Source of the DNA: a bacterium
Lineage (GTDB): Bacteria > Patescibacteriota > Saccharimonadia > UBA4664
NCBI GenBank assembly: GCA_016699105.1
Contig: CP064960.1
Location: 747,696 to 811,695, forward strand
Length of the DNA: 64,000 nucleotides
Direction: 5' to 3'
This document shows, in pieces, positions 8,294 through 50,302 of this stretch (positions are counted from its first letter, which is position 1; the number at the start of each line of letters is the position of its first letter). A model generated the notes under the pieces. The model had not been told where the DNA came from, did not search any database, and worked only from the letters and a program-made list of their open reading frames with translations. Made by a program: the position numbers and the translations under genes.

Positions 8294-8300
8294 ATCATAA

Positions 8301-9044
8301 TTACCCAGATTTACTAAGTGCCGATAAGAGAAAACTGATAATGGCAAACGATACTACGGCTACTACTATACCGACGACAGAGTATAAGATGGTATTCTTG
8401 GCTTGTTCAACGGCTGATTTGTCACCTTGGGAAATAACATACCGCATTCCACCGATGATCAAGAAAACAACCGCTACAGCACCTATGAGAAATATGAGCG
8501 TATTAGCAATGGTTTGAAAGATGCCGCCTTCGCCAAACAAGTTTGAACTGGTACCATTGGCTTGGCTACAATTGGCACCGACTGATAAAGGATTACTTGT
8601 AATATCAGACACATCGCAGTTAGCGTTGCCTGATCCTCCACCCACCGCTCCTCCGCCGGTGCCACCACCACCTGGCACCGTGGTGGGTCGTGGAGTTGGT
8701 GTGGGTGTTACTGGTCGGGGTGAAGGAGTGGGCGTCACTGGTCTCGGGGTAGGAGTGGGCGTGACTGGTCGCGGTGTAGGTACCGGTGTAGGGGTCGTAC
8801 ATCCAGGTCCAGGATACCCGCCTGTACATGGGGTAATGGCACTGGCAGTATCAGTATTACCGCTAACTACGTTGATTGTCTGATGGATAACTTGTGATAG
8901 TACGTCATTTCGTGCTGAATTGGCAGTATCAACTGCCGTATTTGGTTCTTGTACCGGTAGCTGTGATAAAGAAGCAGCTTTAATGACCGGAAAGCCGGTA
9001 AGTGCCAGGACACCAAGCGTCGTTCGGCGCAGGGTATGGTTCAT
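8301..9044 (-). CDS. pilin-like protein with Pro/Thr-rich repeats (VirB2/TrbC-like)
   Basis: Signal peptide; N-domain NTDTASAITPCTGGYPGPGC; (PTPRPVTPT)n linker; Gly-rich stretch; two TM helices flanking MRYVISQGDKSAVEQAKNT. Confidence 0.55.
   Translation of the reverse strand: MNHTLRRTTLGVLALTGFPVIKAASLSQLPVQEPNTAVDTANSARNDVLSQVIHQTINVVSGNTDTASAITPCTGGYPGPGCTTPTPVPTPRPVTPTPTPRPVTPTPSPRPVTPTPTPRPTTVPGGGGTGGGAVGGGSGNANCDVSDITSNPLSVGANCSQANGTSSNLFGEGGIFQTIANTLIFLIGAVAVVFLIIGGMRYVISQGDKSAVEQAKNTILYSVVGIVVAVVSFAIISFLLSALSKSG
8685..8795 (-). repeat. in-frame tandem 27-nt repeats encoding TPTPRPVTP x4
   Basis: Repeating ggtcgYggWgtWggtgtgggYgtYact units are visible. Confidence 0.7.
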
Positions 9045-36030: not shown

Positions 36031-36380
36031 AGGCCGGACGGATCGATGTATCGTCAAGCACGGCAGCCCCTTGGTAGCGTGTGGCTTCCAATTTAATACT
36101 AACTTGCCAGAATCGGTGATTTGAAAAATGGTTTTGTTACGACTACGATCCTGAGACGTGCCTACAGTGCAAAATGCCTTTGTAGACGGTGCGATAAAGA
36201 TTCCGGCGACTGAATCTGATCGACGGCCTCTTGGTCATACACATCATAAGCGTTTGGTGTGAGCGGAAGGACATCTTCAAAAGAAACAATATTCATAAAT
36301 CGAGATTATAGTCAAAGACAATAAAGAGAAATATATTGGTTGGATATTTGAGTTGGAAAATAGATGGTTCGAGCGAATAG

Positions 36381-37812
36381 TTATATTTTAGTTCGGCGCC
36401 AGCGTGGGCCATTGGGTGTGTCGCTGACGTCAAGGTCGTGGCGCCTGAGTTCGGTACGCAATTTGTCGGCTGCGGCCCAATTTCGTGCTTCACGGGCAGT
36501 TTCACGTTCGGCGATAATGTGCTTTTGAGCGGACGTGATATCTGGTCGATTGTCGAGGTTTAATCCGAGTAATTTGTCGAGTCCGCTCAGGAGTGTGTCG
36601 AAATCGTCATTATCGAGTGTCATGCCGGGAGCGAGCTTGGTGACATATTGATAGACTTCGGCGAGTGCTTGACTGGTTGCCAGATCATCGAGCAAATGTT
36701 GCTGCACCTGCTCGAGAAAATCAGTAATCTCAGTGTCGGCTAAGCGCACTTCCGACAGATTACTCTGATGTTTGAGATCCGCCCACGCGAATAAATTGAG
36801 TAAAGGTATTTTGGGCAGCGGCAACTGATTCCCAGGAAAAGTTCATTTCTGAACGGTAATGAGATTGGAGATATAGCAATCTCAGAGCCAACGGATGAAA
36901 GCCTTTTGGATGACATCTTTGAGTGTGTACGAATTGCCCTTTGATTTAGCCATCTTTGCGCCGTCGACCAAAATAAACTCATTATGTACCCACAGGTTCG
37001 CGGGGTGTCCGTGGGCAGCTTCGGTTTGAGCCATTTCGTTCGGGTGATGGGTGCCAATGTGGTCGACGCCGCCGGTATGGATATCTATCGGGTCGTCGAG
37101 GGTAGCGTGAATGATGGCCGAGCACTCCAGATGCCACCCTGGGAACCCATCGCCCCAGGGTGAGTCCCAGTGCATGGTGTGACCTTGGTATCGGCCGACA
37201 GTAAAGAACCAGACGGCAAAATCAAAGGGACTATGTTTGTCGGGATCGGAAACTACTTCGGATCGCTCAGTTTGTTTGTCAGCTAGTTTTTGACCGGTTA
37301 ACTCGCCATATGTCGGCAATTTTGAGACATCAAAGTAAATGGCCTGTTTGGTTTGATAGGCAAAACTTTTTCGAGCAAGATTTGGACCATGGCGATTTGT
37401 TCGTCAATGAATTCGGTAGCTCGGGCGTAGCTATCATGATATTTGGGCGATTGGTAGGTATTGGGGGCAACACATTCATGGCAGCCATATCGTTCTTGAA
37501 TGCTTCGGTGTAATGGGCGGCAACATCCCAAACCGATTTACCTTCACGGGCGGCACCAGTTTCGAGTTTATCTTCACCTTCGTCGGCATCACTGGTGAGA
37601 TGACCGACATCGGTTATGTTCATGGTATGGCGGACTTTGAGTCCGGCGGCTTCAAGGGTGCGGCGGAGCGTATCGTTAAATACCGCATTGCGTAGATTGC
37701 CGATGTGGTAGTAGTTGTAAACTGTCGGTCCACAGGAATAGAGCGAGACCTCGCCGGGCTTAATGGTGGCGAGCTCTTCAGTCTGTCGGGAGAGTGTGTT
37801 GAACAGCTTCAT
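36381..37812 (-). CDS. cysS: cysteine--tRNA ligase (at least 3 apparent frameshifts)
   Basis: HIGN (HIGH motif), CGPTVY, WHLECSAI, GGVDHIGTHHPNE, KMAKSKGN (KMSKS motif) and a C-terminal DALR-like domain. Confidence 0.8.
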
Positions 37813-37836
37813 GGATATAATCCTGATAGGTTTTGA

Positions 37837-38779
37837 TCAGTAAGTCAATTTCAGCTCGGACATCGGGACTTTTACAGCGATAGGCTCCGGCATTGGGATG
37901 ACCGCCGCCACCAAATTTTTCGGCCATGGGACCAGCAGCGCCGGTAGTAGAACGCAACGGGACATTGATTTTGCCGCCATAATTTTGAAAACAGCTACCA
38001 GTTCAACGCCTTTAGTCCACTGCATTTCATTCAAGATGAGGGTATATGGTTCGGAAATATCTTTGTACCGGGCCACCGTATCGGGGTTGATTTCAGCAAT
38101 CGCCAGGCGACCATCAACATGAAATTCGACAGATTGGAGTAGTTTGCCTTTGAGGTGGAGGAGTTCAGGTAAAATGGCGGTGGCTTCACGTTTGCTTTTG
38201 TGAAGTTCGCAAAGATTAGCACCGCGTTTTGTGAGCTCAGCCATGGCGGCCACGCTTTCGGCGGTAGTGCCGGAAGTGGTTAGGCCGAGTGAGTCGGCTA
38301 GGATTGCGCTGGCGAGCTTGGCGGGCAGCGCGCTCATTGATGGGCCAGTTCAGGGCTTGAGCCATCTTGGTCACCAGTTCAGCTGTGGCGACGGCTTCTT
38401 CGACTATTTCGAGCTCGATGTCAAACCCAAAGTTTTGACGGCTGGTGTGGTGGTCAATAATGGCAAAAGGTTTACTGGTCAAAGCTGTGAAATGGTGCTC
38501 GATCGCTGATTTGATGAGGGCTGGAGCACCGGTATCGACTAAAATAACGGCATCAAATTTTGGGCATGTCTTGAATCACCCGGTCCCACCCTTCGAGCCA
38601 GCGCAGATATGGTTCGGGCTGCTTGTACGAGTACATCACCACTTTTTGCCCAGGTCACCAAGTATCTCTTCGAGACCAAGGGCGGTGCCAAGTGAATCGC
38701 CATCTGGTGAATCGGGTTGCAAGATGAGAATGGTTCCAGCTGCATCAATGAATTTTTGTAAGTCTTGGGCTGATTTCAA
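37837..38779 (-). CDS. DHH-family phosphoesterase (NrnA-like nanoRNase/pAp phosphatase), frameshifted; start approximate
   Basis: [13 protein letters not shown]...[13 protein letters not shown] (DHH motif) plus a DHHA1-like C-terminus. Confidence 0.5.
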
Positions 38780-38871
38780 AATGCTTGCCGTCCTTCCAAC
38801 GCCCGGCCTAAGGTTATTTGATCGGCGTATTCAAGATCGCCGCCGACCGGTAAGCCGCGGGGCCAGTCTAG

Positions 38872-39370
38872 TCACTTTGATATCGGTTTTTCAAGCGCTT
38901 CCCGAATGTACATGGCAGTGGATTCTCCTTCGAGGGATGGATTAGTGGCTAATATAACTTCGGTAATTCCTCTTCGGGTAGCCGTTTGAGTAAACTGGCG
39001 ATCTGGAGCCTTTCGGGTCCGATACCGTCTATGGGCGAGATGACGCCACCCAAGACGTGATACAGCCCATGATAAAGTCCGGTTTTTCGATGGCGACCAC
39101 GTCAAATGGCTCTTCGACGATGGCGATGATTGACTGTTCGCGGCTGGATGACGGCAGACATTGCACAAATCATCTTCGGCGAAATTGAAAACATTTACGG
39201 CAAGACCGGACACTGGCGTGTAAATTATCTAACGCCCGGCCTAAGCCTTGGGCGCGCTCGGGTGAATTCTTGAGGATGAAAAAGCTAATCGTTCGGCCGT
39301 GCGGACCCACGCCGGGCAGCCGGCCAAGTTCATCGATCAGTTTTTCGACTGAGTGTGGTACTACGCGCAT
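38872..39370 (-). CDS. recR: recombination protein RecR (frameshifted)
   Basis: N-terminal Hh[15 protein letters not shown]; C4 zinc finger CRKC...CNVC; Toprim [22 protein letters not shown]. Confidence 0.65.
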
Positions 39371-39392
39371 ATATCGGAATAATAAACCTTAA

Positions 39393-39680
39393 ATTACAGC
39401 CCGGGCAGACCGGAGGCCGCCAGCCATGGATTTCATTTTTCAGCAGCGACTTGCTGTGAGCGGTTGATGGCTTGGGTAATAGCCGATTCGAGCCACTTCT
39501 CCACTTTACGCGGGTCAGCTTGAGCTATAAGATCATCGTTGAGGGTTACCTTCTGGATTTTCTGCTCGCCGTTAATGCGGACTTTGACGGCGCCACCGCC
39601 AGCCTCGACCTCGATGATTTCTTTGGATAAGGCACTTTGGATTTTTTAAGTTCAAATAAAGCTTTGCTCTTCTCAAACAT
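39393..39680 (-). CDS. YbaB/EbfC nucleoid-associated protein (frameshifted)
   Basis: MFEKSKALFELKK...VEAGGGAVKVRINGEQK-like frames. This is the conserved ybaB-recR arrangement. Confidence 0.45.
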
Positions 39681-39748
39681 GATGAGGTCTGGTTGCTCCC
39701 AGTTAGATAACGCTTATGCTACAATGACCATGAGATAAAGGAATCCCG

Positions 39749-41597
39749 ATGAAGTCACGGCTCTATGGTACCACACAGCGATTGTTGTCCGGAATGAAAT
39801 CGGTTCACCTGGTACTGGCAGGCGTACTGCTAGCTGGTATGTTTGGTTTGAGTTTGTACAGTATGAAAGACAACTCGGGAATTGTTGATGAGATCGCCCA
39901 TATTCCCGCCGGTTATTCGTATGTAAAATATGGCGATTATTTTGAATCCAGAACACCCGCCATTGGTAAAAGACCTGGCGGGATTGCCTTTACTGTTTAT
40001 GGATGTCGATTTTCCGACCGAAGAACGCCCCTGGACGACTGATACCAATGGTCAATGGGAGGCTGGTTGGAGTTTTATTTATCATCTCGGTAACGATGCC
40101 AGTGCCATATTGTACTGGTCGCGGATGCCGGTGTTGTTACTGACTATCGGGTTTGGGATATGGCTCTACTGGTGGACAAAACGCCGCTGGGGTGTAGCCG
40201 TGGGTCTGTTGACACTATTCTTCTACGCACTAAGCCCGAATGTGCTGGCACACTCAGCGCTCGTGACTACCGATGCCGGAGCTACGGCTACGTTATTTAT
40301 GGCTATCGTGGCGTTTGCGTGGTACGCTACCAAACCGTCGTGGCAACGACTGCTAGGATTTTCGTTGGTGTTGGCCATTGCCCAGCTGACAAAGTTTTCG
40401 GCATTTATGTTGTATCCCTATTTGCTCATGGTATCTGTTGGGATGGTTATGGTGTGGCGACAACCAGCCAGTTGGCTATCGCGACTCAAGCACTACGTCG
40501 GTGGATTGATCGCCGCATCGGCTGCCAGTATGGCATGGGTATGGCTGGCATATGTGCCTCATACTTGGAATATGCCTCAAGATGTTCAGGATCAGTTGAT
40601 TCGCGGGAGTATCTACGACGAGCGGTGGCAGGGACTGGTTCAATTTATGACCAATATCAATGATATGAGCGTATTAAGGCCATTGGTACAATATTTGTTA
40701 GGTGTTTTAATGGTATTTGGCCGGGTTCAGGGTGGGAATGTTACATATTTCAACGGTCAGGTGAGTAATCAGAGCTTTCATTGGTATTTCCCTCAATTGT
40801 TCGTTATGAAAACGCAAGTAGCCCTGCTTATTTTCATGGTTATGCTCGTGGGGGCGATTGCTTGGCGCGTGTCACGGACGGTGTCGGCTCGGCGTTTGAT
40901 GACGGCATTTGCCGCTAATTTCCGATCTCACACTGCCGAATGGGCTTTGGGCGGTTTCGCTGCATTCTATTTCTCCGTGTCGGTGGCAGGCAACTTAAAT
41001 CTCGGCATACGGCATATACTGCCCGTCTACGTGCCGTTGTTCTTGTTGGTGGCTATCGGTATGGTGCAATGGATACGTCGCAGCCAGGGAGCGCGCAAAG
41101 TGTGGCTGGCTGGCGTATTGACGGTCGGAGCGGTTTGGTACGGTGCGAGTACTGCCATTGCTGCCCCCTACTTCATCCCCTACTTCAACGAAATCGCCGG
41201 CGGTTCGGGTAATGCGTATAAGTATTTTTCAGACTCTAGTGTCGACTGGGGACAAGACCTGGTGCGGTTACATCAGTATGTGGAAGATCATCCGGAGATC
41301 GATAAAATTGCCATCGATTATTTTGGCGGCGGGTCGCCTGACTATTACTTTTGCGACCGTCGTTATACTGACAGTGGTGAATTAATTGCAACTTCGGCTG
41401 GCTATGATTGCTCCAAATCAAAATTTGAACCATGGCATGCACAGTATGGTGAGTACCAAGGTGACTATATAGCTTGGACATTTTTGGAAAACGATCGGTG
41501 GTATGCAGGCCGAGAAGGCCATGACGGCTATAAATACTTGCGCGAGCGTGAACCGGTAGCTAAAATCGGCAGTATTTACGTCTACAAACTGCGCTAG
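39749..41597 (+). CDS. GT-C glycosyltransferase, PMT/GT39-like (apparent frameshift near 39950)
   Basis: Loop-1 DEIAHIPAGYSYVKYGDYF (DE motif), then 10 or more TM helices (FYALSPNVLAHSALVTTDAG...). Confidence 0.6.
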
Positions 41598-41705
41598 AAA
41601 TTATGGCTGAACAACTGATGCTTGTCCGTTTAGCAAATATATTGGGACAAGCGATACAAGTTATTCTCAAAAATTTGATGAAGGCATTCAGCTGGATGAA
41701 GGGGG

Positions 41706-42219
41706 TTGTATTCAGCTATGCCGGAAACAGAGGGCCATCGAGGCAGTGTAATCTACGATGCTTTTTGCGGGCGTCGGCGGAACATCAATCGCGTACGCCA
41801 GAGCTGGCAAGCAAGTTATTGCAACAGATATAAATGCGAAACGTCTGGCAATGGCGGAACACAATGCGCAAATTTATGGTGTGTCGAACAACATCGATTT
41901 CATATGTGCTGACTTTTTCAAGATGGCTTCGCATGTCGAAGCACATACCGTCGTTCTTGACCCGCCATGGGGAGGGCCAGCTTATAAATCAAAAAATGTT
42001 TTTCATATAGAGAATTTAGTCGCTCAGAGCACTATCTTAGATAATCCAGACGGCCACGCAATATTGAATTTAGCATTACGCTACTTTTCGGAGGTGGTCT
42101 TACGCGTACCGCTAAACTTTGATCTGTCAGAACTTAATTCGTACAATCACCAATCCAGGGTCTATGACGATGTTTTGGATGAGCGCGTAATTTGCCGAAC
42201 AGTGGTCTTTTCGAGCTGA
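41706..42219 (+). CDS. RNA methyltransferase, TGS1/RsmD-like (apparent frameshift near 41765)
   Basis: DAFCG(V)GGTSIAYA motif I and DPPWGGP motif IV. Confidence 0.5.
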
Positions 42220-42227
42220 TAGAAGTA

Positions 42228-44147
42228 TTACGTGAGTGGTGTGAGCTGCTTGATGAGCTCGCGGACTTCAATGGTAGCCACGCCAACGACGTGATCGGCA
42301 CCGCCGTAGTAGAGGTAGATAACGCCGTCCCGGACAACTTGGCCACAAGGGAAGACGACGTTACTGATCCAGCCCTCGCGTTCCCAGTCGAGTACTGGAG
42401 TCATGATTGGTTGTGACGACCGGCCAATGACGCGGGTAGGATCTTTGGGATCAAGTAAGACAGCCCCCAGGCAATACTCGTGGGCTTCGGTGATACCGTG
42501 ATAAAACAAGATCCAGCCGTGAGCAGTTTTGATGGGCGGCCCGGCGATACCAACTTTTTTGTCATCCCACATTCCCGGACGCGGTCCAATGATTTGGATA
42601 CAGCGCGTCACTTTCTCGCGGCGGAAATTGAGACTATCAACGAAATCACCGCAAATATGGGAAGACACCCGGTGCAAGATCATGTACTGACCATTAATTT
42701 TCTCGGAAAATAAGCAGGCGTCTTTGTCGTCGACTCCTTGGGGCGTGATGATCTCAGGCATAGTCCATTTATCGAACCGGTGGTGCAAAAAATCATCGAC
42801 ACTGATAGAACTCTCGGCGACTTTGGGATTCGAGACCGAGTCATAAGCCGTGTAGGTGATGTACAGATGATCGCCAATGCGGACAATGCGGGCATCTTCG
42901 CAACCGGAGTTGTCAGTTGGCCCGCCGGCTTTGAGCTCGAATTTGACCCGCGGTACGTAGATTGGGTCGGCCAGACGTTCGACGATTTTGACGCCGTCAT
43001 GACTGCGGGCCAGACCGGAGACAGAGGTATTATCGGGTCCAACCGCCCGGTACATAATGTAGACATCGTTGTTAATTTCGACTGCTGCCGGATTGAGCAC
43101 ATGACTGGCTTCCCAAGGGTGAGCAGCGATGGGCTCAAGAATAGGATTCTCGGGCGCGCGTTTGACATGTTGTTTGACGGCATTGTCGGCGGACAAGGCA
43201 TCAAGTAATCCGGCAAAACTGACAGTTGCTCGACAGCAACTCGTATCAGTTGATCCGTAATAGATGGTAAATTTGTCTCCGTGACGAACGGCACCGGAGG
43301 GGAATATGATCCGGGGTAAGCGGCCGAAGCGTTCGTAGCCTTCCTCGGGCACCATGAGGGGATAAATGGTCCGGCGCAAAATCTTGCAGGGATTAGCATG
43401 ATCGAGTAATGCGGCTTCAATACCAAAAATCTTACTTTCGGAAAAGTAGTTTTTGATGTGAGAGTACACCAGCAACCAGCCATCTGTAGTCCAAATTGGC
43501 GGTGCGCCAACTTCGACATGATCGCCATTGCCACGGAGTAATTCGAGGGTGTGCTCCTCTAAATGTTCGTACCAATCTTCCCAAAAAGCCGTTGACCACA
43601 TATCGGAAATGTCATTGAATTGAGCGATACCAATTCTGGATGGTGGCAGATCGGAGTTGGCGGTCAGTATTACTTGGAGTTTGCCATCGACACGTTCCGG
43701 AAATAAGGCCATAGCCTTGGCATTGAATGGTGTGATGAGATGCTTAGCTTCGATGTGCTCCAGATCTTTGGTAATAGCGACTGCGGCTTTAATGTTCTCG
43801 GCGCCAAAGGGATACCCGCCGAGCGCAGTATAAAATATGTAATAAGTATCACCGAGCTTGGTAACCCGGGGATCTTCACAGCCATATTTGTCCCACGATT
43901 CAGACGGTACAACGAGCTGCCTGGGCGCTCCATAATGACCGTCTGGCAATTCTTGAGCAATGGCAATGGTTGATAATTCTACCGTCTCGTTTTCGTATAA
44001 CGCCGGGTGGCTGGCGGCGCGGAATACCAGGTAGTTGTCGCCGTGGTAGGTAACGGGTGACGGGTTAAATGTAGCCTCAGCATGCCAAGGTGTCGCCGGA
44101 TCCGGTTTGACGAGGGGGTTGTGGCTATCGCGAGTGACGGTTACCAT
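42228..44147 (-). CDS. tandem GH130-family protein (mannoside phosphorylase/hydrolase-like), 2 domains
   Basis: Two repeats, each with NPxxV...YRAxG, GCEDPRV/GCEDARI and beta-propeller blades. Confidence 0.75.
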   Translation of the reverse strand: MVTVTRDSHNPLVKPDPATPWHAEATFNPSPVTYHGDNYLVFRAASHPALYENETVELSTIAIAQELPDGHYGAPRQLVVPSESWDKYGCEDPRVTKLGDTYYIFYTALGGYPFGAENIKAAVAITKDLEHIEAKHLITPFNAKAMALFPERVDGKLQVILTANSDLPPSRIGIAQFNDISDMWSTAFWEDWYEHLEEHTLELLRGNGDHVEVGAPPIWTTDGWLLVYSHIKNYFSESKIFGIEAALLDHANPCKILRRTIYPLMVPEEGYERFGRLPRIIFPSGAVRHGDKFTIYYGSTDTSCCRATVSFAGLLDALSADNAVKQHVKRAPENPILEPIAAHPWEASHVLNPAAVEINNDVYIMYRAVGPDNTSVSGLARSHDGVKIVERLADPIYVPRVKFELKAGGPTDNSGCEDARIVRIGDHLYITYTAYDSVSNPKVAESSISVDDFLHHRFDKWTMPEIITPQGVDDKDACLFSEKINGQYMILHRVSSHICGDFVDSLNFRREKVTRCIQIIGPRPGMWDDKKVGIAGPPIKTAHGWILFYHGITEAHEYCLGAVLLDPKDPTRVIGRSSQPIMTPVLDWEREGWISNVVFPCGQVVRDGVIYLYYGGADHVVGVATIEVRELIKQLTPLT

Positions 44148-46094
44148 CTAGCGCTGAACGTCCATGACAGTGGTAGCGACTGGTTCGAGTGAGAGGTTGT
44201 GATTGTAAACAAGGGCGTCTAAGAACGTTTTGACATTGGCCCGGGCGACACCGACATGCTTATCACCGCCGCCATAATACACGACCAAGTTTTCGCCCAA
44301 TATAACTGCACCACAGGTATACACGACACCGTGTTTAGCATCATTTTCATACCATTCTTGGGGTGCCAAGATGGGGGCATTCGACCGGTACAAAATTTTG
44401 GTCGGATCTTGGAGATCGAGCAGCATGGCGCCGAGCTTGTATTTACCGGGATCGCGATGGTCATTGGCGTGGTAAAGCAAGAGCCAACCCATTGGAGTCT
44501 TAATTGGGGGTGCACCGGCGCCACGAACCCGGGAATCCCAGTGCTTAGTGCGGCGGGGGTCATGATAACCATGTCCGTGGGCTGGAGGCAGGCTGTCGAT
44601 ATATTTTTTGCCATCCAAATCGTCGAGCGAATCGACATAATCAATATAAATTTGTGGACTGAGGCCATGCAAAATAGCATAACGACCACCTATTTTCTCC
44701 GGGAAGATCAGCCAATTTTTGTGTGGTTGATTCGGCTTGGAGATGAGGGCTGGTGGCTTCCAATGCCATTTATGCTCGGCTAAGTGCTCAAGCGAGATTG
44801 AGGTCAGTGCTTGCCGCATGAAGTCCCAACCATTGAAAGCGTGAAAAGTCATATACACTTTATCGTCGATACAGACAGCGCGCGGATCTTCGCAGCCAGC
44901 CCAGCCGCCACCAGATGGATACAAATCAGGATCGTATTTCCAGGATTTTTGGTCAGCGGTCGGATCGGGCAAGCCATAACCAAGACTGGGCGTATACACC
45001 GGATATGTCAGCCGTTCGTCGAAGTTGACTCCATCGCTGCTCGAGGCATAGCCAATCCGGGAAATACCGTCTGGACCCATTGCTCGGTACAAGAGGTGTA
45101 CTCGACCATCAGCGACAAACGCCGCCGGATTGAATACAGCTTGTGACTCCCATTCCAAACTTGATGGTGACAGAATGGGATTTTGATCAGACCGACCCAA
45201 GGCTAGGTCGCGGCCTTTGATGGTATGAGACGCAAACGGATTGGCGATTTTGGCGACGATGATCTTGTCGCGGGTGGTTGTAAAATAAAAATTAATATGG
45301 ACATCGTAGATGGCAGCACCCAGCACCCGGGGTAGGTGTTCGGTCGGTTGCTCAAATGTATGTAAAGCATCATCGGATCGCCATATCACCTGGTCTGGCT
45401 CGGTGGAAGAACACAAAATTGCGCCCAAGTGAATTGTGGTTTTGCCCTGACGCTGGGCGGTGCTGGAATACAATATCATGATGCCTGCCGGCAAATGAGC
45501 AGTACCAATGACGGCCAAATGATGGTTATCAAATTGATGTGGGCGAGTTCCTGCAATTATCTGACTGTCGGTTTGCCACGAAACCAGATTTTTACTAAAT
45601 GCTACCCGGATGTCTTGACCGCCATAATACAATACGTACTGGCCAAAATGACGGTACTCAGGCACAATCTGACCTGGTCCTTGCAATCTGGGATCAGCTG
45701 CCAACACATGCCAGATGGCCAAGTCGTCTTCAATGGTATGGCGGGCAATTCGCAGCTGAGCTGGATGAGTGCTGGTGTGCGCCGTAAACGTCAACAGCCG
45801 GTCATGGAGGACCTGGCTGATGCGAAAATTATCGGTTTGAACTAGTTTGAGCACCCGGCCGAGCGGCTGGATCAGGGTGATCGGCTCGGTATTTGGTTTG
45901 AAGTGGTCGCCGGTAGCGGGCGCGTGAACAAGCTGCCAGGTACTTCCGTATTTGCTCAAGCCGATTAAGGCTATGCTACTTTTGTCACGAAACACACCAA
46001 GAGGGTGCGTTCGCCTCATTCCTGAGTGACTCACAACCACTACACTTTCTTTTTGGTATAAATTTATTCTAGCACAAGCATTTTGCAGCTGCAA
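44148..46094 (-). CDS. tandem GH130-family protein, paralog of the preceding gene
   Basis: FNPAAFVADGRVHLLYRAMGPDG and GCEDPRAVCIDDKVYMTFHA; two domains. Confidence 0.7.
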   Translation of the reverse strand: MQLQNACARINLYQKESVVVVSHSGMRRTHPLGVFRDKSSIALIGLSKYGSTWQLVHAPATGDHFKPNTEPITLIQPLGRVLKLVQTDNFRISQVLHDRLLTFTAHTSTHPAQLRIARHTIEDDLAIWHVLAADPRLQGPGQIVPEYRHFGQYVLYYGGQDIRVAFSKNLVSWQTDSQIIAGTRPHQFDNHHLAVIGTAHLPAGIMILYSSTAQRQGKTTIHLGAILCSSTEPDQVIWRSDDALHTFEQPTEHLPRVLGAAIYDVHINFYFTTTRDKIIVAKIANPFASHTIKGRDLALGRSDQNPILSPSSLEWESQAVFNPAAFVADGRVHLLYRAMGPDGISRIGYASSSDGVNFDERLTYPVYTPSLGYGLPDPTADQKSWKYDPDLYPSGGGWAGCEDPRAVCIDDKVYMTFHAFNGWDFMRQALTSISLEHLAEHKWHWKPPALISKPNQPHKNWLIFPEKIGGRYAILHGLSPQIYIDYVDSLDDLDGKKYIDSLPPAHGHGYHDPRRTKHWDSRVRGAGAPPIKTPMGWLLLYHANDHRDPGKYKLGAMLLDLQDPTKILYRSNAPILAPQEWYENDAKHGVVYTCGAVILGENLVVYYGGGDKHVGVARANVKTFLDALVYNHNLSLEPVATTVMDVQR

Positions 46095-46103
46095 AAGAAG
46101 TTT

Positions 46104-46847
46104 TTATCGGTAGACGCCTTTGACAGCATTTATGGCAATAACAATGGTGTCACTAAAGGTTTTGATGGCAGCTTTGAGTGGTGAATCGCCGACCAGACCC
46201 ATATCCCCCGTTTTGGGATCATGCCAATCATTGGCATTAATGGTAGTGATACGATAGCCGTGGATGCGGGCGATTTTGAGAATTTCAGCGTCAAAACTCC
46301 ATCCCATCATGGTTTGGAGCGGGAATATTTCTTCAGCGGCGACAGCCGAAAATCCTTTGAAGCCACATTGGGTGTCCTTGATGCCAGGCAGGATGAGAGC
46401 TTGTATAAATAAATTGCCGAAACTTGACATAAACTTACGGAAAATGCCTTTATGAATAGAAAACAAATCGCGGACTGCAATGACGATGGGGGCGCCATTT
46501 TTCAGTAATTCGTAGGACTGCGCAATATGCTCTAAGGGGGTGGCGAGATCAGCATCCATAAACAAGCGATAACGACCCTTAGCTTCGAGCATACCAGCCC
46601 TTACGTCGCGACCCTTACCGACTCGAGCTCCCAACTGATGGACCCGAAAGTGCTTGAACCGGCCGGCCACACTTTGGGCTTGCTCGGTGGTCCCGTCCGG
46701 GCTGTCGGCAGTTACCACAATGATTTCAACTTGGCCTAAGTGCTGCGCGTCAAGATAATCAGCTAACGTGTTGAGCGATTGTTTGATGATCTTACCTTCC
46801 ATATAGGCTGGTATGATCAAGCTGAGGTCAATGGTGGATTTTGTCAT
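46104..46847 (-). CDS. GT2 polyprenol-phosphate mannose/glucose synthase (DPM1-like)
   Basis: LSLIIPAYME, DADL and QCGFKGF motifs. Confidence 0.8.
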   Translation of the reverse strand: MTKSTIDLSLIIPAYMEGKIIKQSLNTLADYLDAQHLGQVEIIVVTADSPDGTTEQAQSVAGRFKHFRVHQLGARVGKGRDVRAGMLEAKGRYRLFMDADLATPLEHIAQSYELLKNGAPIVIAVRDLFSIHKGIFRKFMSSFGNLFIQALILPGIKDTQCGFKGFSAVAAEEIFPLQTMMGWSFDAEILKIARIHGYRITTINANDWHDPKTGDMGLVGDSPLKAAIKTFSDTIVIAINAVKGVYR

Positions 46848-48385
46848 TTGGTCATCTCGTAGGTATAGTAAACTTCCGTTTGGTTAAATGGTGAAAAGTG
46901 CGGCTTAAAGGTTCCGCCCGGGAATTTAGCTTTGAGTAGTTTTTTACTGGCATCGCGTTCACTAGCACTGATGTAAAAGTATTTGGCTTCGCCGGCTGTG
47001 GGTAATAGTGCTAACTCATCAATCTTGATATATGTAGCCGGACGGCTATCAGCTAAATATTGAATAATTGGTTGTTCTGCAGGCGTCGTGACAACATATA
47101 CCGAGCCATCTTGTTTGCTGGTATGGAGATTTGTGCCAAGTCTGACGGCGCCTTCATTGTGGGCAGCATAGGTGGCGCCGGTGTGACCCCATGCCCGGAA
47201 ATACTGAGTGTATCCCAGAGCTGTACTTAGAATGATAAGTACAATGACGGTAGCTTGACCGACCGAACGGGCAGCTGAATTAGCCGGAAACGTACTGTAC
47301 CAAAGGTTGAGAATATAATGTATGCCTAATCCGGCTAACATAACTACGGCTGGCAACGCCACGACAGCCCGGCTAAAATTGGCTGTACCTGGGGCCGTGA
47401 AAACGGCAGGCAAAAGCCCAATGAATAGCCAGGCTAATAACCATCGATAGGTATAAAATTTAATTCGCGTTATGGCGACTAGTAAACCAGTAGCAAAGCT
47501 GATCGCCAAAAAGCTGTTTAAGGCTGGCTGATCGGGTAAATTGTGAACGTAGTTGGCATCACCGCTGCCCGGACCAATGAGCATGAGGAAGTTGGCGCTG
47601 AGAGCGGCTAGCCACGACGCAGGTTTATAGCTAAATCCAGACCAATTAAACAATTGGCTCAAACTATCCCAGGAGTTGGCAACCATTACTATGATGGTAG
47701 CCATGACAAGCCCGCTGAAGACGACGCCAGTAACAACCGAAGGAGTGGTAGTGGGACGTTTGTGTCGGTGAATGATGCGTACAAAGGCTAACCCGAGCAC
47801 GAGCGCATTGATGAGCCAACCCAGCGGTCCAATGGCTAGATTAACTAAGGCTACAACGGCCAATAAGCCTGCCCGAATGGGTTGGGGTTGTCGCCAAGCC
47901 CGACCAGCTAGCCAGACGGTAAGAGTTAACATGAGGGGAACAGCCGCTGCTACGGTTCCCAAACGACTGGCAGTCACAGCCCACGGTAGACTGGCGAGGG
48001 TAAAGGTAGCGGCGTGGGCGGCTGTTCGACCGAGCCATTGGCGAGTAACAAACCACATCGGAATGACAGCTAATGCCCCTAAGGCTGCAGGCAGCAGTCG
48101 CAGAGATAATGGCGAGGCGCCGGCAATCTTGATACCAATAGCTTGGAGCCACACCCACAGTGGTGCGTAACCGTTACTACTATCGAGACCCGGTATCGTG
48201 CCGTGTTGTAGGAGTGCTTGGGCTTGGATCGCAGAAGTTGCCAAGCTCGCGTCAAACCCCGGCGGTAGCTGGGCTAGATCGTAAAATCGCATAAAGATGG
48301 CGAGTAGTAATGCGCTGGCTAGCACCAAACTATCAGTAAATGGTCCGAGCCAACTAAATGGTGGTTTGACGCGGCGCGCAGTCAT
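46844..48385 (-). CDS. GT-C fold glycosyltransferase (ArnT/PMT/YkcB-like)
   Basis: 12 or more TM helices. N-terminal RFYDLAQLPPGFDAS loop. The DPM1-like and GtrA genes are neighbours. Confidence 0.6.
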   Translation of the reverse strand: MTARRVKPPFSWLGPFTDSLVLASALLLAIFMRFYDLAQLPPGFDASLATSAIQAQALLQHGTIPGLDSSNGYAPLWVWLQAIGIKIAGASPLSLRLLPAALGALAVIPMWFVTRQWLGRTAAHAATFTLASLPWAVTASRLGTVAAAVPLMLTLTVWLAGRAWRQPQPIRAGLLAVVALVNLAIGPLGWLINALVLGLAFVRIIHRHKRPTTTPSVVTGVVFSGLVMATIIVMVANSWDSLSQLFNWSGFSYKPASWLAALSANFLMLIGPGSGDANYVHNLPDQPALNSFLAISFATGLLVAITRIKFYTYRWLLAWLFIGLLPAVFTAPGTANFSRAVVALPAVVMLAGLGIHYILNLWYSTFPANSAARSVGQATVIVLIILSTALGYTQYFRAWGHTGATYAAHNEGAVRLGTNLHTSKQDGSVYVVTTPAEQPIIQYLADSRPATYIKIDELALLPTAGEAKYFYISASERDASKKLLKAKFPGGTFKPHFSPFNQTEVYYTYEMTK

Positions 48386-48858
48386 GGACGGAATACCACG
48401 AGTTTATACATGAGATAATTCCAAACCAGACTTAACACCGTGCCGGCGGCTTTGGCCGTGTTTTTGACGATAAAGGTGTCGCCGGACCATTGGTTGAGGC
48501 CGAGTATATGACTGACATCGGCCGCTAGCATAGTGGGATATGTCCAAACATCCGTCAGTATATGGATAGTGCCAGTTTGTAGAACGTATAACCCAAAGGC
48601 TGTGACCGTGTAAAAGATGAGGCCTTGTTTGAGCATTGAACCACCGGTGCGTTTAAACACCATTTCTTTATTCGCAAAGAAGCTAAATGTCATAGCGCAG
48701 GTGGTTGATATTAGGTTAGCCGGTACCGCACTAAGATGAGCGAAATGGCCCAGTACATTGAAGATGACAAAGTCAAGCAGGGTGTTTAAGATACCGACTA
48801 AGCCAAATTTACCTACTCTTTTGACCTCTTCGACATCGTTTTGGTTTGGAGATTTCAT
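48382..48858 (-). CDS. GtrA-family membrane protein
   Basis: FGLVGILNTLLDFVIFNVL and four TM helices. Confidence 0.75.
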   Translation of the reverse strand: MKSPNQNDVEEVKRVGKFGLVGILNTLLDFVIFNVLGHFAHLSAVPANLISTTCAMTFSFFANKEMVFKRTGGSMLKQGLIFYTVTAFGLYVLQTGTIHILTDVWTYPTMLAADVSHILGLNQWSGDTFIVKNTAKAAGTVLSLVWNYLMYKLVVFRP

Positions 48859-48916: not shown

Positions 48917-50302
48917 CTAACCATGGAATCGTTCCAGATTGGTGAAGCGGCGTTGCTCTGGATGGAAATACAATTCGATATCGCCAACTGGGCCGTTACG
49001 ATGTTTTCTGATGAGGATATCGGTAATATTTTCGCGATCAGTTTGTTTATTGTAATAAAACTCACGATAAATAAACATTACGACGTCAGCGTCCTGCTCA
49101 ATTGATCCGGAATCACGCAAGTCGGCTAGCTGGGGAATCGGTGGCGTGCGCGATTCCACTGCCCGAGACAGCTGACTGAGCGCAATTACCGGTACTCCAA
49201 GCTCACGAGCGAGCCCTTTCAAGCCCCGGGAAATTTCTGACACTTCCTGTTGACGACCTTCCGAAGAGCGGGCGCCGCCAGATATGAGCTGCAAGTAGTC
49301 GATAATGATCAGTCCGAGGCCATGTTCGCTCTGCAGGCGCCGGGCTTTGGTGCGCATTTCCATGACATTGGTGATGGCTGAATCGTCAATAAAAATGGGT
49401 GCCTCGGAAAGTTCTGCCATGGCTTCGTTAATTTTGGGAAAATCGTCGTCATCGAGAGCTCCAGTGCGTAATTTCCAAGAATCCACACCAGACTCAATGG
49501 CTAGTAGTTGATCAATGAGCTGCTCTTTGGAGACTTCAAGACTGAAAAAACCAACAGGTATACCTTCACGAGCAGCCACATGGTGAGCAATATTCATAAC
49601 AAAGGTGGTTTTTCCCATGGATGGACGGGCAGCTAAAATGATGAGATCAGATGCCTGCAGACCGGCGAGCATGCGGTCGAGATCTTTGAAACCGGTAGGT
49701 ACGCCACGCAATTTGCCGGTATTTGAATGGAGCTCATTGAGTCGCTCGAATGACTCGGCCAGCACACTGGATATTGGAATAAAGTTTTGCTTCAGATTTT
49801 TTTGGCTGACTTCAAAGATCGTCTGCTCAGCTTTGTCGAGCAATTGCTCTAAGCCGGTTTGTTCGTCGAATCCCAGATTTGAAATCTCGGATGCGGCTGA
49901 AATGAGTCGCCTGAGTGTCGCTTTGTGGGCGACGATGCTAGCGTAATGTACAACGTGTGCGGCTGTCGGCACCGCTGATGTCAGCTCGGTGACAAAGGCG
50001 GCTCCGCCGATGCGCTCGAGCTCATTGGCGGCAGACAGCTTGTTTGCTAAGCTGACGACATCTATCGGCTGACGGGCTTCGTATAAATCAAGAATAGCCG
50101 TAAAGATGAGTCCGTGACGGTCGTCGTAAAAATCATCGGCATGGACAATGTCGGCCACCTTTATGATGGCGTCTTTTTCAATCAAGATCGAACCGAGCAG
50201 ACTAGCTTCAGCATCTAGATTTTGGGGTGGCATTTTGGCTGCTAAGACGGCTGCAGATTGGGTTCTTTCGGAACCGGTACTAGTTTTTTTCGATGTTGCC
50301 AT
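48917..50302 (-). CDS. dnaB: replicative DNA helicase
   Basis: N-terminal domain LDAEASLLGSIL; Walker A GKTTFVMNIA; RecA-like core. Confidence 0.9.
   Translation of the reverse strand: MATSKKTSTGSERTQSAAVLAAKMPPQNLDAEASLLGSILIEKDAIIKVADIVHADDFYDDRHGLIFTAILDLYEARQPIDVVSLANKLSAANELERIGGAAFVTELTSAVPTAAHVVHYASIVAHKATLRRLISAASEISNLGFDEQTGLEQLLDKAEQTIFEVSQKNLKQNFIPISSVLAESFERLNELHSNTGKLRGVPTGFKDLDRMLAGLQASDLIILAARPSMGKTTFVMNIAHHVAAREGIPVGFFSLEVSKEQLIDQLLAIESGVDSWKLRTGALDDDDFPKINEAMAELSEAPIFIDDSAITNVMEMRTKARRLQSEHGLGLIIIDYLQLISGGARSSEGRQQEVSEISRGLKGLARELGVPVIALSQLSRAVESRTPPIPQLADLRDSGSIEQDADVVMFIYREFYYNKQTDRENITDILIRKHRNGPVGDIELYFHPEQRRFTNLERFHG

What the first reader, a model, noticed from the sequence alone, without database searches (positions are those of the whole stretch)
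39749..48858. Mannosylation/mannoside locus: PMT-like GT39, two adjacent tandem-GH130 proteins, DPM1-like GT2, second GT-C transferase, GtrA
A polyprenol-phosphate-sugar synthase (GT2, DADL motif), a GtrA flippase-associated protein and two GT-C transferases (one with the PMT loop-1 DE motif) form a lipid-linked glycosylation module. Beside it are two paralogous genes, each carrying two GH130 domains (the GCEDPR motif four times). GH130 enzymes act on beta-mannosides, a family-level inference. The combination suggests synthesis and turnover of a mannose-containing surface glycan, or protein O-mannosylation, possibly of the Pro/Thr-rich pilins. An RNA methyltransferase (TGS1-like) is embedded in the locus for unknown reasons.
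Basis: partly seen in the sequence, partly recalled or inferred. Interest (0 to 1): 0.55.

Follow-up and report, generated by a model that had tools for sequence, protein, structure and literature searches.

The report
Mannoside-phosphorylase pair beside glycosylation operon

Summary
The gene set is real: two GT-C (PMT_2) transferases, a DPMS-like GT2, a GtrA-family protein, two adjacent ~630-aa GH130 proteins and a Methyltransf_15 gene. Three details need correcting. The GCED[PA]R motif occurs three times, not four. The N-terminal half of the upstream GH130 protein (A) is a dead GH130 domain. GT-C#1 and the methyltransferase are frameshifted only in this error-prone long-read assembly.

The locus is two modules. 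GtrA, GT-C#2, GT2 and GT-C#1 form a Saccharimonadia block between dnaB and ybaB/recR. It exists without any GH130 gene in related genomes. The GH130 pair (A then B) recurs in the 80 best-matching species genomes (nearly all CPR-labelled). A lies directly upstream of B in 65 of 66 loci. A cupin Man-6-P-isomerase-like gene is nearby in 47 of 66 and a PMM-like phosphatase-family gene in 35 of 66. Glycosylation genes are nearby only in the window's own clade.

Only B's C-terminal domain keeps the full beta-1,2-mannoside phosphorylase signature. B's N-terminal domain and A's C-terminal domain keep the catalytic Asp and sugar-site residues but have lost phosphate-binding residues.

The best reading is a cytoplasmic beta-1,2-mannoside/mannose-1-phosphate system juxtaposed with, and perhaps feeding, a polyprenol-phosphate-hexose surface-glycosylation system. 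It is a new variant of known kinds, of moderate interest.

The parts
39749..41597 (+). GT-C#1: a GT-C_A fold membrane glycosyltransferase (PMT_2), 619 aa when intact. It has an invariant D47-E48 after TM1 and a C-terminal extracytoplasmic alpha/beta domain. In the window the frame is broken at about 39940 (2-nt deletion).
   Evidence: Pfam PMT_2. Intact in L001/L002. AF2 pLDDT 86, pTM 0.88. Foldseek hits STT3, Pmt4 and ArnT. Invariant DE.
41604..42219 (+). Methyltransf_15 (TGS1-like) SAM methyltransferase, 214 aa when intact. In the window it is frameshifted and carries deletions (41608-41762). It is a strain-specific insertion and not part of either module.
   Evidence: Pfam 93-94 bits. Indel map. 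Absent from 66 of 66 other loci, including L006 at 92% identity. NCBI annotates a 153-aa hypothetical protein.
42228..44147 (-). GH130 protein B (639 aa): a tandem of two five-bladed propellers in one chain. This architecture recurs in the 80 best-matching species genomes, nearly all labelled CPR.
   Evidence: PF04041 288 bits. AF2 pLDDT 94.4, pTM 0.91. Foldseek 9fj8 TMt 0.91, rmsd 2.0 A. Homologues of about 640 aa.
42231..43187 (-). B C-terminal domain (residues 321-639): full beta-1,2-mannoside phosphorylase signature. Catalytic D418 and E417, K475, phosphate-binding R493 and H550.
   Evidence: All seven key positions conserved in 85/85 (one gap at the D304 position). PDB 9fj8 E 6e-55. Residue coordinates.
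43188..44147 (-). B N-terminal domain (residues 1-320): keeps catalytic D92 and the +1-site residues, but both phosphate-binding residues are replaced (T162 for Arg, S229 for His). Family-invariant D166 and E212 lie nearby.
   Evidence: 84 of 84 orthologues lack both Arg and His. Pairwise alignment to 7fip. Conservation profile.
44148..46019 (-). GH130 protein A (623 aa from the Met used in L001; the ORF extends to 46094). It is always directly upstream of B.
   Evidence: PF04041 141 bits. The L001 gene call is 623 aa. An A-type gene is upstream of B in 65 of 66 loci. A_C-B_N-B_C triple fusions exist.
44151..45194 (-). A C-terminal domain: keeps catalytic D378, K434 and H517, but the phosphate-binding Arg is Gly (G452).
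   Evidence: Arg is replaced in 75 of 83 orthologues, and only 3 of 83 keep both Arg and His. Alignment to 9fj8.
45195..46019 (-). A N-terminal domain: a degenerate (dead) GH130 pseudo-domain, with Asn64 at the catalytic Asp position.
   Evidence: HHalign of the A_N family against the B_C family gives 98.7%, E 3.8e-16, and the motif is not conserved. BLAST similarity is only weak.
46104..46847 (-). GT2: a soluble polyprenol-phosphate-hexose synthase-like catalytic domain (DAD motif at residues 98-100) with no TM segment.
   Evidence: PF00535 76 bits. PDB ranking DPMS 5mlz 56 bits, GtrB 39, ArnC 28. No TM segment.
46844..48385 (-). GT-C#2: a polytopic membrane glycosyltransferase (PMT_2), 513 aa. 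It evolves quickly and is restricted to a Saccharimonadia subgroup.
   Evidence: Pfam PMT_2 35 bits. About 9-10 hydrophobic segments. Only 30 homologous clusters.
48382..48858 (-). GtrA/DPMS-TM family small membrane protein. It is either a flippase-associated protein or the detached membrane anchor of the GT2.
   Evidence: PF04138 76 bits, full length. The order GtrA-GT-C#2-GT2 is conserved in L003, L006-L008, L086 and L087.
48917..50302 (-). dnaB. This is context only: it is the upstream boundary of the conserved dnaX-dnaB-[glycosylation block]-ybaB-recR backbone.
   Evidence: Pfam DnaB/DnaB_C. Synteny.

Best explanation
The span is a composite of two separable modules in a Saccharimonadia (CPR/Patescibacteria) genome.

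Module 1 (GtrA, GT-C#2, GT2, and the convergent GT-C#1) is a polyprenol-phosphate-hexose surface-glycosylation system of the three-component type.
- The soluble DPMS-like GT2 charges a polyprenol phosphate with a hexose from a nucleotide sugar at the cytoplasmic face. It probably docks on, or works with, the GtrA/DPMS-TM protein.
- The lipid-linked sugar is flipped, and the two GT-C enzymes transfer it to extracytoplasmic acceptors (protein or wall polymer; not identified).

Module 2 (A then B) is a cytoplasmic beta-1,2-mannoside system that recurs across CPR lineages.
- The C-terminal domain of B interconverts beta-1,2-mannooligosaccharide plus phosphate with alpha-mannose-1-phosphate.
- The N-terminal domain of B and the C-terminal domain of A keep the catalytic acid and the mannose-binding residues but have lost the phosphate site. 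They therefore should act on the same glycan without phosphate, as a GDP-mannose-type transferase or as a hydrolase.
- The N-terminal domain of A is non-catalytic.
- In most CPR the pair sits with a Man-6-P-isomerase-like cupin and a PMM-like gene, linking the glycan to fructose-6-phosphate.

My favoured physiological reading is inference: the glycan is made and re-mobilised inside the cell. In the window's clade the pair has been inserted into Module 1 and is probably co-transcribed with it. The plausible link is supply of mannose-1-phosphate/GDP-mannose to the GT2.

Shown: gene identities, domain states, conservation and synteny. Inferred: substrates, direction of flux, sugar identity and coupling.
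For: Identity:
- Pfam.
- PDB sequence hits to Teth514_1788/1789 beta-1,2-mannoside phosphorylases.
- AF2 model of B, pLDDT 94 and pTM 0.91, superposing on 9fj8 at TMt 0.91 and 2.0 A.

Active-site states, using the diagnostic positions of PMC7660257 Table 2:
- B_C has D/R/H/R/E/K/D in 85 of 85.
- B_N lacks both the Arg and the His in 84 of 84, while keeping Asp, Glu, Lys, Arg59 and Asp304.
- A_C lacks the Arg in 75 of 83, and only 3 of 83 keep both Arg and His.
- In the related GT108 family, replacing the corresponding phosphate-pocket Arg by His (the residue found in strict transferases) abolished newly installed phosphorylase activity. In GH130 the Arg is described as a determinant of phosphorylase versus hydrolase activity.

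A and B work together:
- A is directly upstream of B in 65 of 66 loci.
- Natural A_C-B_N-B_C triple fusions exist.

Link to mannose phosphates:
- PF01050 cupin in 47 of 66 loci and a PF03332/HAD-IIB gene in 35 of 66.

Cytoplasmic location:
- No signal peptide or TM segment in the window's A or B.
- Where A-type proteins carry an N-terminal TM helix, basic residues follow it.

Module 1:
- GT2 is closest to DPMS, then GtrB, then ArnC.
- GT-C_A fold and an invariant DE.
- The block is conserved between dnaB and ybaB.

Separability:
- L086 and L088 lie on one 829-kb contig, about 200 kb apart.
- GT genes are near B in only 4-5 of 66 loci.
Against: - No biochemical data exist for any tandem GH130.
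- B and A fall below NCBIfam's equivalog cut-off for beta-1,2-mannobiose phosphorylase (395 and 233 bits against 450).
- Linkage specificity rests on alignment-derived signature residues only.
- The phosphate-less domains could be lectin-like rather than catalytic.
- The GT2's sugar is unresolved (56 bits to DPMS).
- No PMM, cupin or NDP-sugar pyrophosphorylase motif is present in the 64-kb window.
- In this clade the tight spacing (84 nt between GT2 and A) may reflect a real functional coupling that the cross-genome statistics understate.
- The promoter/terminator scan was uninformative.
Confidence: 0.6

Rival explanations
1. All genes form one pathway that builds a mannose-containing surface glycan or O-mannosylates secreted PT-rich proteins. 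The GH130 proteins trim or recycle that glycan.
For: - The genes are contiguous and tightly spaced, with same-strand order GtrA-GT-C#2-GT2-A-B, in the window and in L003, L006, L007, L008 and L009.
- The GT2 is nearest to Dol-P-Man synthase.
- PT-rich secreted proteins, one with a T4SS-pilin domain, lie elsewhere in the window.
Against: - The modules are 200 kb apart in a related genome, and the glycosylation block exists alone in others.
- The pair is next to GT genes in only 4-5 of 66 loci.
- A and B lack export signals, and phosphorolysis needs cytoplasmic phosphate.
- Cultured Southlakia has no PF04041 (GH130) entry in its annotation table, yet keeps a fitness-important GT-C beside dnaB.
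Confidence: 0.15
2. A purely catabolic salvage route. The pair degrades imported or host-derived beta-mannosides to Man-1-P for glycolysis or GDP-mannose, as proposed for Thermoanaerobacter Teth514_1788/1789.
For: - Closest characterised relatives and their proposed role.
- Phosphorolysis saves ATP, which suits fermentative CPR.
- The adjacent isomerase-like and mutase-like genes fit a route to Fru-6-P.
- One locus has an MFS-like gene and a GH63 gene beside the pair.
Against: - Transporter genes were not among the queries; in the four neighbourhoods with gene calls only one had a possible transporter (an MFS-like gene, L004), unlike the Thermoanaerobacter cluster with its ABC transporter.
- No source of beta-1,2-mannan is known for the hosts or habitats (groundwater, soil, sludge, lakes) where the pair is conserved.
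- Two conserved phosphate-less catalytic modules are not needed for simple phosphorolysis.
Confidence: 0.2
3. The GT-C enzymes are ArnT-type lipid modifiers (aminoarabinose-like transfer to a lipid) rather than protein or wall glycosyltransferases.
For: - PF13231 also covers ArnT-like enzymes, and sources name some homologues 'ArnT family' or '4-amino-4-deoxy-L-arabinose transferase-like'.
- ArnT structures are among the Foldseek hits.
Against: - The ArnT TM-scores (0.33-0.42) are lower than for Pmt4 (0.51/0.62) and STT3.
- The GT2 scores lowest against ArnC among polyprenol-phosphate GT2s.
- Saccharimonadia are generally held to lack lipid A (my own knowledge, not tested here).
- No Ara4N synthesis genes were seen in the locus.
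Confidence: 0.05

Closest known systems
[quoted passage not shown]
   Same: - B_C aligns end to end (E 6e-55; 37% identity; model TMt 0.91, rmsd 2.0 A).
- It shares every catalytic, phosphate-binding and +1-site residue.
- Both are cytoplasmic.
- In both cases two GH130 activities are encoded side by side.
   Different: - Here the modules are fused in tandem within one chain.
- Only one of four modules keeps the phosphate site.
- There is no ABC transporter, GH5 or guanylyltransferase in the cluster.
- NCBIfam equivalog cut-offs are not reached.
Leishmania mannogen enzymes (GT108 MTP1-7) and the dual GP/GT GH130 enzyme Uhgb_MS
   Same: - Same five-bladed propeller fold and inverting chemistry on beta-1,2-mannan.
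- A set of paralogues in which some keep and some lack the phosphate-pocket Arg, matching phosphorylase versus transferase-only roles.
- MTP structures are retrieved by the B model (TMt 0.6-0.7).
   Different: - No sequence-level membership in GT108 (absent from phmmer PDB hits).
- The Arg is replaced by small residues (Thr/Ser/Gly/Asn/Ala), not His.
- Transferase activity and a mannan reserve are untested in any CPR.
GH130_3 beta-1,2-mannosidases (BT3780, BACOVA_03624)
   Same: Like B_N, they lack both phosphate-binding residues while keeping the catalytic Asp.
   Different: - B_N and A_C score higher against the phosphorylase models than against the BT3780 model.
- The characterised hydrolases are often secreted.
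- The position of a general base in B_N (candidates D166, E212) was not verified.
Three-component GtrA/GtrB/GtrC-type glycosylation systems, and Pgf-type or Ppm1/Pmt-type protein O-glycosylation
   Same: - A polyprenol-phosphate GT2, a GtrA-family protein and GT-C transferase(s) in one cluster.
- The best NCBIfam hit of the GT2 is PgfS, though far below cut-off.
- GtrB and DPMS are the nearest structures.
   Different: - The GT2 lacks its own TM segment, suggesting a split DPMS-like arrangement.
- There are two GT-C enzymes.
- Donor sugar and acceptor are unknown.
- No PF02366 or MIR domain of eukaryotic or actinobacterial PMTs is present.

Membership tests
GH130 (PF04041) | Profile match above Pfam's gathering score | tested here: met
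   A 141 bits and B 288 bits against a cut-off of 26.
GH130 (PF04041) | Five-bladed beta-propeller fold | tested here: met
   AF2 model of B (pLDDT 94) superposes on 9fj8 at TMt 0.91, rmsd 2.0 A. A was not modelled.
GH130 (PF04041) | Catalytic proton-donor Asp (UhgbMP D104) in each module | tested here: inconclusive
   Met in B_N (D92), B_C (D418) and A_C (D378). Not met in A_N (Asn64, motif not conserved).
GH130 beta-1,2-mannoside phosphorylase | Phosphate-binding Arg168/His231 pair | tested here: inconclusive
   Met only in B_C (R493, H550; 85 of 85 orthologues). Not met in B_N (T162, S229; 0 of 84) or in A_C of the window (G452). Only 3 of 83 A-type orthologues keep both.
GH130 beta-1,2-mannoside phosphorylase | +1 subsite signature R59/E103/K150/D304 (Glu and Lys indicate beta-1,2) | tested here: met
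   Conserved in B_C, B_N and A_C in at least 81 of 83 to 85 of 85. The criteria come from PMC7660257 Table 2.
GH130 beta-1,2-mannoside phosphorylase | No signal peptide (cytoplasmic) | tested here: met
   No hydrophobic N-terminal or TM segment in the window's A or B by hydropathy scan. No dedicated signal-peptide predictor was available.
GH130 beta-1,2-mannoside phosphorylase | NCBIfam equivalog cut-off (NF052550, 450 bits) | tested here: not met
   B 395 bits, A 233 bits.
GH130 beta-1,2-mannoside phosphorylase | Reversible phosphorolysis of beta-1,2-mannosides | not testable with these tools
   Requires an enzyme assay.
GT39 protein O-mannosyltransferase (PMT) | PF02366 PMT domain, with MIR and PMT_4TMC domains | tested here: not met
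   Only PF13231 (PMT_2) at 34-35 bits for both GT-Cs. A minority of homologues carry a precomputed PF02366 hit.
GT39 protein O-mannosyltransferase (PMT) | Asp-Glu motif in the first extracytoplasmic loop | tested here: met
   GT-C#1 has D47-E48, invariant in 26 homologues. GT-C#2 has only an Asp (FDAS) in that region.
GT39 protein O-mannosyltransferase (PMT) | Structural similarity to PMT above other GT-C_A classes | tested here: inconclusive
   Pmt4 gives the best TM-score (0.51/0.62), but STT3 has better E-values and ArnT is also hit.
ArnT (GT83) lipid A modifier | Lipid A acceptor and Ara4N donor pathway (ArnA/B/C) | not tested
   Only 64 kb was available. No arn genes are in the locus. The GT2 scores lowest against ArnC.
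Three-component polyprenol-phosphate glycosylation system | Polyprenol-phosphate GT2, GtrA-family protein and GT-C transferase encoded together | tested here: met
   The order is conserved in L003, L006-L008, L086 and L087.
Dol-P/polyprenol-P-mannose synthase (DPM1/DPMS/Ppm1) | GT-A fold with a DXD (DAD) motif | tested here: met
   D98-A-D100 is invariant in four orthologues. The best PDB hit is 5mlz.
Dol-P/polyprenol-P-mannose synthase (DPM1/DPMS/Ppm1) | GDP-mannose specificity | not testable with these tools
   56 bits to DPMS against 39 to GtrB is not discriminating.
GT108 mannogen MTPs | Sequence membership in GT108 | tested here: not met
   No GT108 chain appears among the phmmer PDB hits. 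There is only fold-level similarity.

The most novel reading that the evidence does not exclude
CPR/Patescibacteria make and re-mobilise an intracellular beta-1,2-mannan reserve (a bacterial counterpart of Leishmania mannogen).
- The Arg-less GH130 modules (A_C, possibly B_N) act as nucleotide-sugar-dependent primers or elongators, or as trimmers.
- B_C acts as the phosphorylase that returns mannose-1-phosphate to central metabolism through the neighbouring PMM-like and isomerase-like genes.
- A is held at the membrane or in a complex by its variable N-terminus (TM helix, poly-Lys tail or dead propeller).
Probability: 0.3. Interest if true: 0.8.

Novelty: new variant of a known kind. Interest (0 to 1): 0.55.

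Why it matters
CPR bacteria have tiny genomes and few recognisable carbohydrate pathways. Yet the 80 best-matching species genomes (nearly all CPR-labelled) retain about 3.8 kb for this GH130 pair, which public records mostly call 'hypothetical' or 'GH43/DUF377'.

The pattern of active sites is one true phosphorylase site, two catalytic sites without a phosphate pocket, and one dead domain. It recurs in the orthologues examined. This gives a concrete, testable proposal for how these organisms store or process mannose.

It also provides natural examples for the current question of what switches GH130/GT108 enzymes between phosphorylase, transferase and hydrolase activity.

For annotation, it shows that the adjacent glycosylation operon should not be read as functionally fused to the GH130 genes simply because they are neighbours in one clade.

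Tried and rejected
1. PDB sequence searches with both GT-C proteins gave no hits at E<=1. Only the AF2/Foldseek route classified the fold, and it did not separate PMT, STT3 and ArnT classes.
2. NCBIfam gave no equivalog-level name for any gene in the locus.
3. The promoter/terminator scan of 39.0-52.5 kb was at the chance level, so operon structure rests on gene spacing only.
4. A search of the window for PMM, cupin or a nucleotidyl-transferase motif found nothing. The route to GDP-mannose in this genome is therefore open.
5. An exact-sequence look-up of GT-C#2 (P0241) returned no contig. The source record was identified through cluster names instead.
6. Literature searches for GH130 or mannoside phosphorylases together with CPR, Saccharibacteria or Patescibacteria found only a passing mention of two GH130 genes in one Microgenomates genome. 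The Southlakia Tn-seq paper has no PF04041 (GH130) entry in its annotation table.
7. I considered real pseudogenisation of GT-C#1 and the methyltransferase. I rejected it for GT-C#1 because essential neighbours (cysS, recR) are broken in the same indel-dense stretch. For the methyltransferase, multi-base deletions leave real decay possible.
8. I considered polyprenol-phosphate-mannose as a donor for the membrane-tethered A-type enzymes. I rejected this on stereochemistry (a beta-linked donor with an inverting enzyme) and because the +1 mannose-binding residues are conserved. This is inference.

Full report
OBSERVATION. Pfam gives the following:
- PMT_2 for the plus-strand ORF ending at 41597.
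- Methyltransf_15 for 41758-42219.
- Glyco_hydro_130 for 42228-44147 (protein B, 288 bits, two stretches) and for 44148-46094 (protein A, 141 bits).
- Glycos_transf_2 for 46104-46847.
- PMT_2 for 46844-48385.
- GtrA_DPMS_TM for 48382-48858.
- dnaB and dnaX follow on the same strand.

The minus-strand genes are packed tightly. GtrA/GT-C#2 and GT-C#2/GT2 overlap by 4 nt, and A and B abut. The DADL motif of the GT2 is at residue 98.

Three details are wrong or incomplete.
- GCED[PA]R occurs three times in the whole window (two GCEDPR, one GCEDAR), not four.
- The N-terminal half of A shows only faint BLAST similarity to the other GH130 domains.
- GT-C#1 and the methyltransferase are broken in the window.

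ASSEMBLY QUALITY AND SOURCE.
- The exact B protein is encoded on two short-read contigs, L001 and L002. They align to the window at 97.7% and 98.8% identity with 43 and 20 gap openings.
- The indels are concentrated at 34.6-41.8 kb, and about a third lie in homopolymers.
- On those contigs GT-C#1 is 619 aa, starting at the position equivalent to 39749, and the methyltransferase is 214 aa. ybaB, recR, a DHH phosphoesterase and cysS are intact there but fragmented in the window.
- The window matches NCBI proteins QQR51928-QQR51933 (locus tags IPG36_...) on a 1.32-Mb contig.
- Broken essential genes indicate assembly error rather than decay. For the methyltransferase, multi-base deletions leave decay possible.
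- Names attached to homologues place the organism in Candidatus Saccharimonadia.

THE GH130 PROTEINS.
- B_C aligns over its full length to Teth514_1788 (9fj8, E 6e-55) and Teth514_1789 (7fip). B_N and A_C hit the same structures more weakly.
- An AF2 model of B has pLDDT 94.4 and pTM 0.91, indicating a fixed packing of two propellers. It superposes on 9fj8 at TMt 0.91 and 2.0 A.
- A profile of 23 A_N sequences matches the B_C family by HHalign at 98.7% (E 3.8e-16), but the catalytic motif is not conserved. A_N is therefore a dead GH130 domain.

I used the diagnostic positions published for GH130: proton donor D104, phosphate-binding R168 and H231, and +1 subsite R59, E/Y103, K/R150 and D304. 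I tabulated them in 83-85 orthologues of each module.

| Module | Catalytic Asp and +1 site | Phosphate-binding Arg | Phosphate-binding His |
|---|---|---|---|
| B_C | conserved, full beta-1,2 signature in 85/85 | kept | kept |
| B_N | conserved in 84/84 | Thr/Ser/Ala/Gly in 84/84 | Ser/Ala/Cys in 84/84 |
| A_C | conserved | lost in 75/83 (Gly452 in the window) | mostly kept; lost in five of the eight that retain Arg |

Only 3 of 83 A_C modules have both phosphate-binding residues.

The literature read here states that this Arg binds phosphate in all GH130 phosphorylases. It also states that replacing the corresponding Arg by His abolished newly installed phosphorylase activity in GT108. So one of the four modules is a canonical phosphorylase, two are probably catalytic but not phosphorolytic, and one is inert. 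B_N has family-invariant acidic residues (D166, E212) near the lost phosphate site. Whether one of them is a general base could not be tested.

DISTRIBUTION AND NEIGHBOURS.
The 80 best all cover the full tandem.
- Four of the 80 are labelled outside CPR, some are unclassified, and the rest are CPR lineages: Saccharimonadia, Paceibacterota, and the Nomura-, Adler-, Zambryski-, Taylor-, Moran-, Campbell- and Lloydbacteria.
- I compared ORFs of all loci with the window's proteins and with neighbours seen in L004/L005.

| Feature near B | Loci (of 66 with enough flank) |
|---|---|
| A-type GH130 directly upstream | 65 |
| PF01050 cupin (Man-6-P isomerase C-terminal type, 73 bits) | 47 |
| HAD-IIB gene hitting PF03332 PMM (41 bits) | 35 |
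| GT2, GT-C or GtrA | 4-5, all at least 64% identical to the window's B |
| The methyltransferase | 0 |

- Natural fusions in the order A_C-B_N-B_C (971-1110 aa) exist. This supports A and B acting together.
- The A-type N-terminus comes in three forms: a single TM helix followed by basic residues, a 40-90-residue poly-lysine tail, or the dead propeller. The first two suggest a membrane-proximal cytoplasmic location, which is inference.

THE GLYCOSYLATION GENES.
- The GT2 has no TM segment. Its best solved relative is P. furiosus Dol-P-Man synthase, both for the single sequence (E 5e-14) and for a four-sequence profile (56 bits, against 39 for GtrB and 28 for ArnC).
- Pfam names PF04138 'GtrA/DPMS transmembrane domain'. 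The separate GtrA gene may therefore be the detached membrane part of a DPMS-like enzyme (inference).
- Neither GT-C has a sequence hit in the PDB.
- GT-C#1 has 1734 homologues, the listed ones mainly from Saccharimonadia and about 619 aa long. D47-E48 after TM1 is invariant among 26 aligned homologues.
- Its AF2 model (pLDDT 86, pTM 0.88) is a GT-C_A fold. It matches STT3 (E 2e-6), C. thermophilum Pmt4 (best TM, 0.51/0.62) and ArnT (0.33-0.42). 'PMT-like' therefore holds at fold and motif level, but GT39 membership is not shown.
- GT-C#2 has only 30 homologous clusters.

SEPARABILITY.
- In contig ERZ25039533:contig_29178 (829 kb) the order is dnaX-dnaB-GtrA-GT-C#2-GT2-GT-C#1(reverse)-ybaB-recR, with no GH130 gene. 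The A-B pair lies about 200 kb away.
- A second genome has the block followed by a 488-aa GT-C on the same strand, again with no GH130.
- In cultured Southlakia epibionticum the supplementary tables list recR-ybaB-GT39-like gene (SEML1_0400; Tn-seq calls GD/ES/ES)-dnaB-dnaX. There is no PF04041 entry in the Pfam column. Orthology of SEML1_0400 was not tested.
- The glycosylation block is therefore a resident of the dnaB-ybaB interval. The GH130 pair is an independent cassette that entered it in one subclade. In L003 and L007 a third, phosphate-site-less single GH130 gene occupies the place of the methyltransferase.

MECHANISM. Shown: gene identities, folds, residue states, conservation and synteny. 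Inferred:
1. B_C interconverts beta-1,2-mannooligosaccharides plus phosphate with alpha-Man-1-P.
2. A_C and B_N act on the same glycan without phosphate, as a GDP-mannose-type transferase (by analogy with GT108 MTP1/2 and the dual-activity GH130 enzymes) or as a hydrolase (by analogy with GH130_3).
3. The PMM-like and cupin genes connect Man-1-P to Fru-6-P.
4. Module 1 makes a polyprenol-phosphate hexose and transfers it outside the membrane.
5. In this clade the shared operon may couple Man-1-P supply to the GT2, as proposed for the Thermoanaerobacter cluster.

I favour an endogenous make-and-reuse cycle over pure salvage for two reasons. I saw no recurring transporter gene in the few neighbourhoods with gene calls (transporters were not searched for systematically). 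And two phosphate-less catalytic modules are conserved. This is the weakest step.

COMPARISON WITH WHAT IS KNOWN, AND NOVELTY.
- GH130-GH130 modular proteins are noted only as a curiosity, four sequences in CAZy in 2018.
- Searches of the paper library found no study linking mannoside phosphorylases to CPR, apart from a one-line mention of two GH130 genes in a Microgenomates genome.
- Public records name the window's B 'hypothetical protein'.
- The glycosylation module is an ordinary three-component system.
- Overall this is a new variant of known kinds. It is of moderate interest as it stands, and of high interest if a mannogen-like reserve in CPR is confirmed.

Noticed in passing
window 34600-41800: This stretch is dense in small indels relative to two short-read contigs (54 indel events over the ~12.4 kb aligned to L001, 52 of them in 34.6-41.8 kb, about a third in homopolymers). 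It fragments cysS, a DHH phosphoesterase, recR, ybaB, GT-C#1 and the methyltransferase. By contrast, 42-47 kb has only one compensating pair of indels. This is probably uneven polishing of a long-read assembly.
   Followed up: yes
window 7439-9044 (minus strand): Two adjacent secreted-looking proteins carry long Pro/Thr-rich repeats (PTPxPVTPTP). One has a C-terminal T4SS_pilin domain (PF18895, 37 bits). They are T4SS-type, lie about 31 kb from the locus, and are possible O-glycosylation targets, but that is untested.
   Followed up: partly
window 41604-42219; absent in L006 (92% identical relative) and in 66 of 66 other loci: The TGS1-like Methyltransf_15 gene is a strain-level insertion between B and GT-C#1. 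In L003 and L007 the same position holds a third single-domain GH130 that lacks both phosphate-binding residues.
   Followed up: partly
A-type genes in L005, L011, L014-L085 (upstream of position ~10000 in each locus): The A-type GH130 has three alternative N-termini across CPR: a single TM helix followed by basic residues, a 40-90-residue poly-lysine tail, or a dead GH130 propeller. This suggests that membrane or complex tethering is the conserved requirement.
   Followed up: partly
P0064 (1110 aa), P0090 (996 aa), P0091 (971 aa): These are natural triple-GH130 fusions in the order A_C-B_N-B_C, the same as the gene order A then B.
   Followed up: partly
L004 8731-13276: In one Saccharibacteria genome an MFS-like membrane protein lies between A and B. 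A GH63/MGH1-like (mannosylglycerate-hydrolase-like) gene follows B. This hints at an alternative, possibly import-linked, context.
   Followed up: no
window 61000-62646 and 56963-58486 (minus strand): Two apparent gene fusions: thymidylate kinase with ThyX (Thymidylate_kin + Thy1, 548 aa), and a class-V aminotransferase with NUDIX (507 aa).
   Followed up: no
Southlakia epibionticum ML1, SEML1_0398-0402 (supplement of PMC10633639): The recR-ybaB-GT-C-dnaB-dnaX backbone is conserved in a cultured Saccharibacterium. The GT-C there scores as growth-defective/essential in Tn-seq, while the genome has no PF04041 (GH130) entry in its annotation table.
   Followed up: partly
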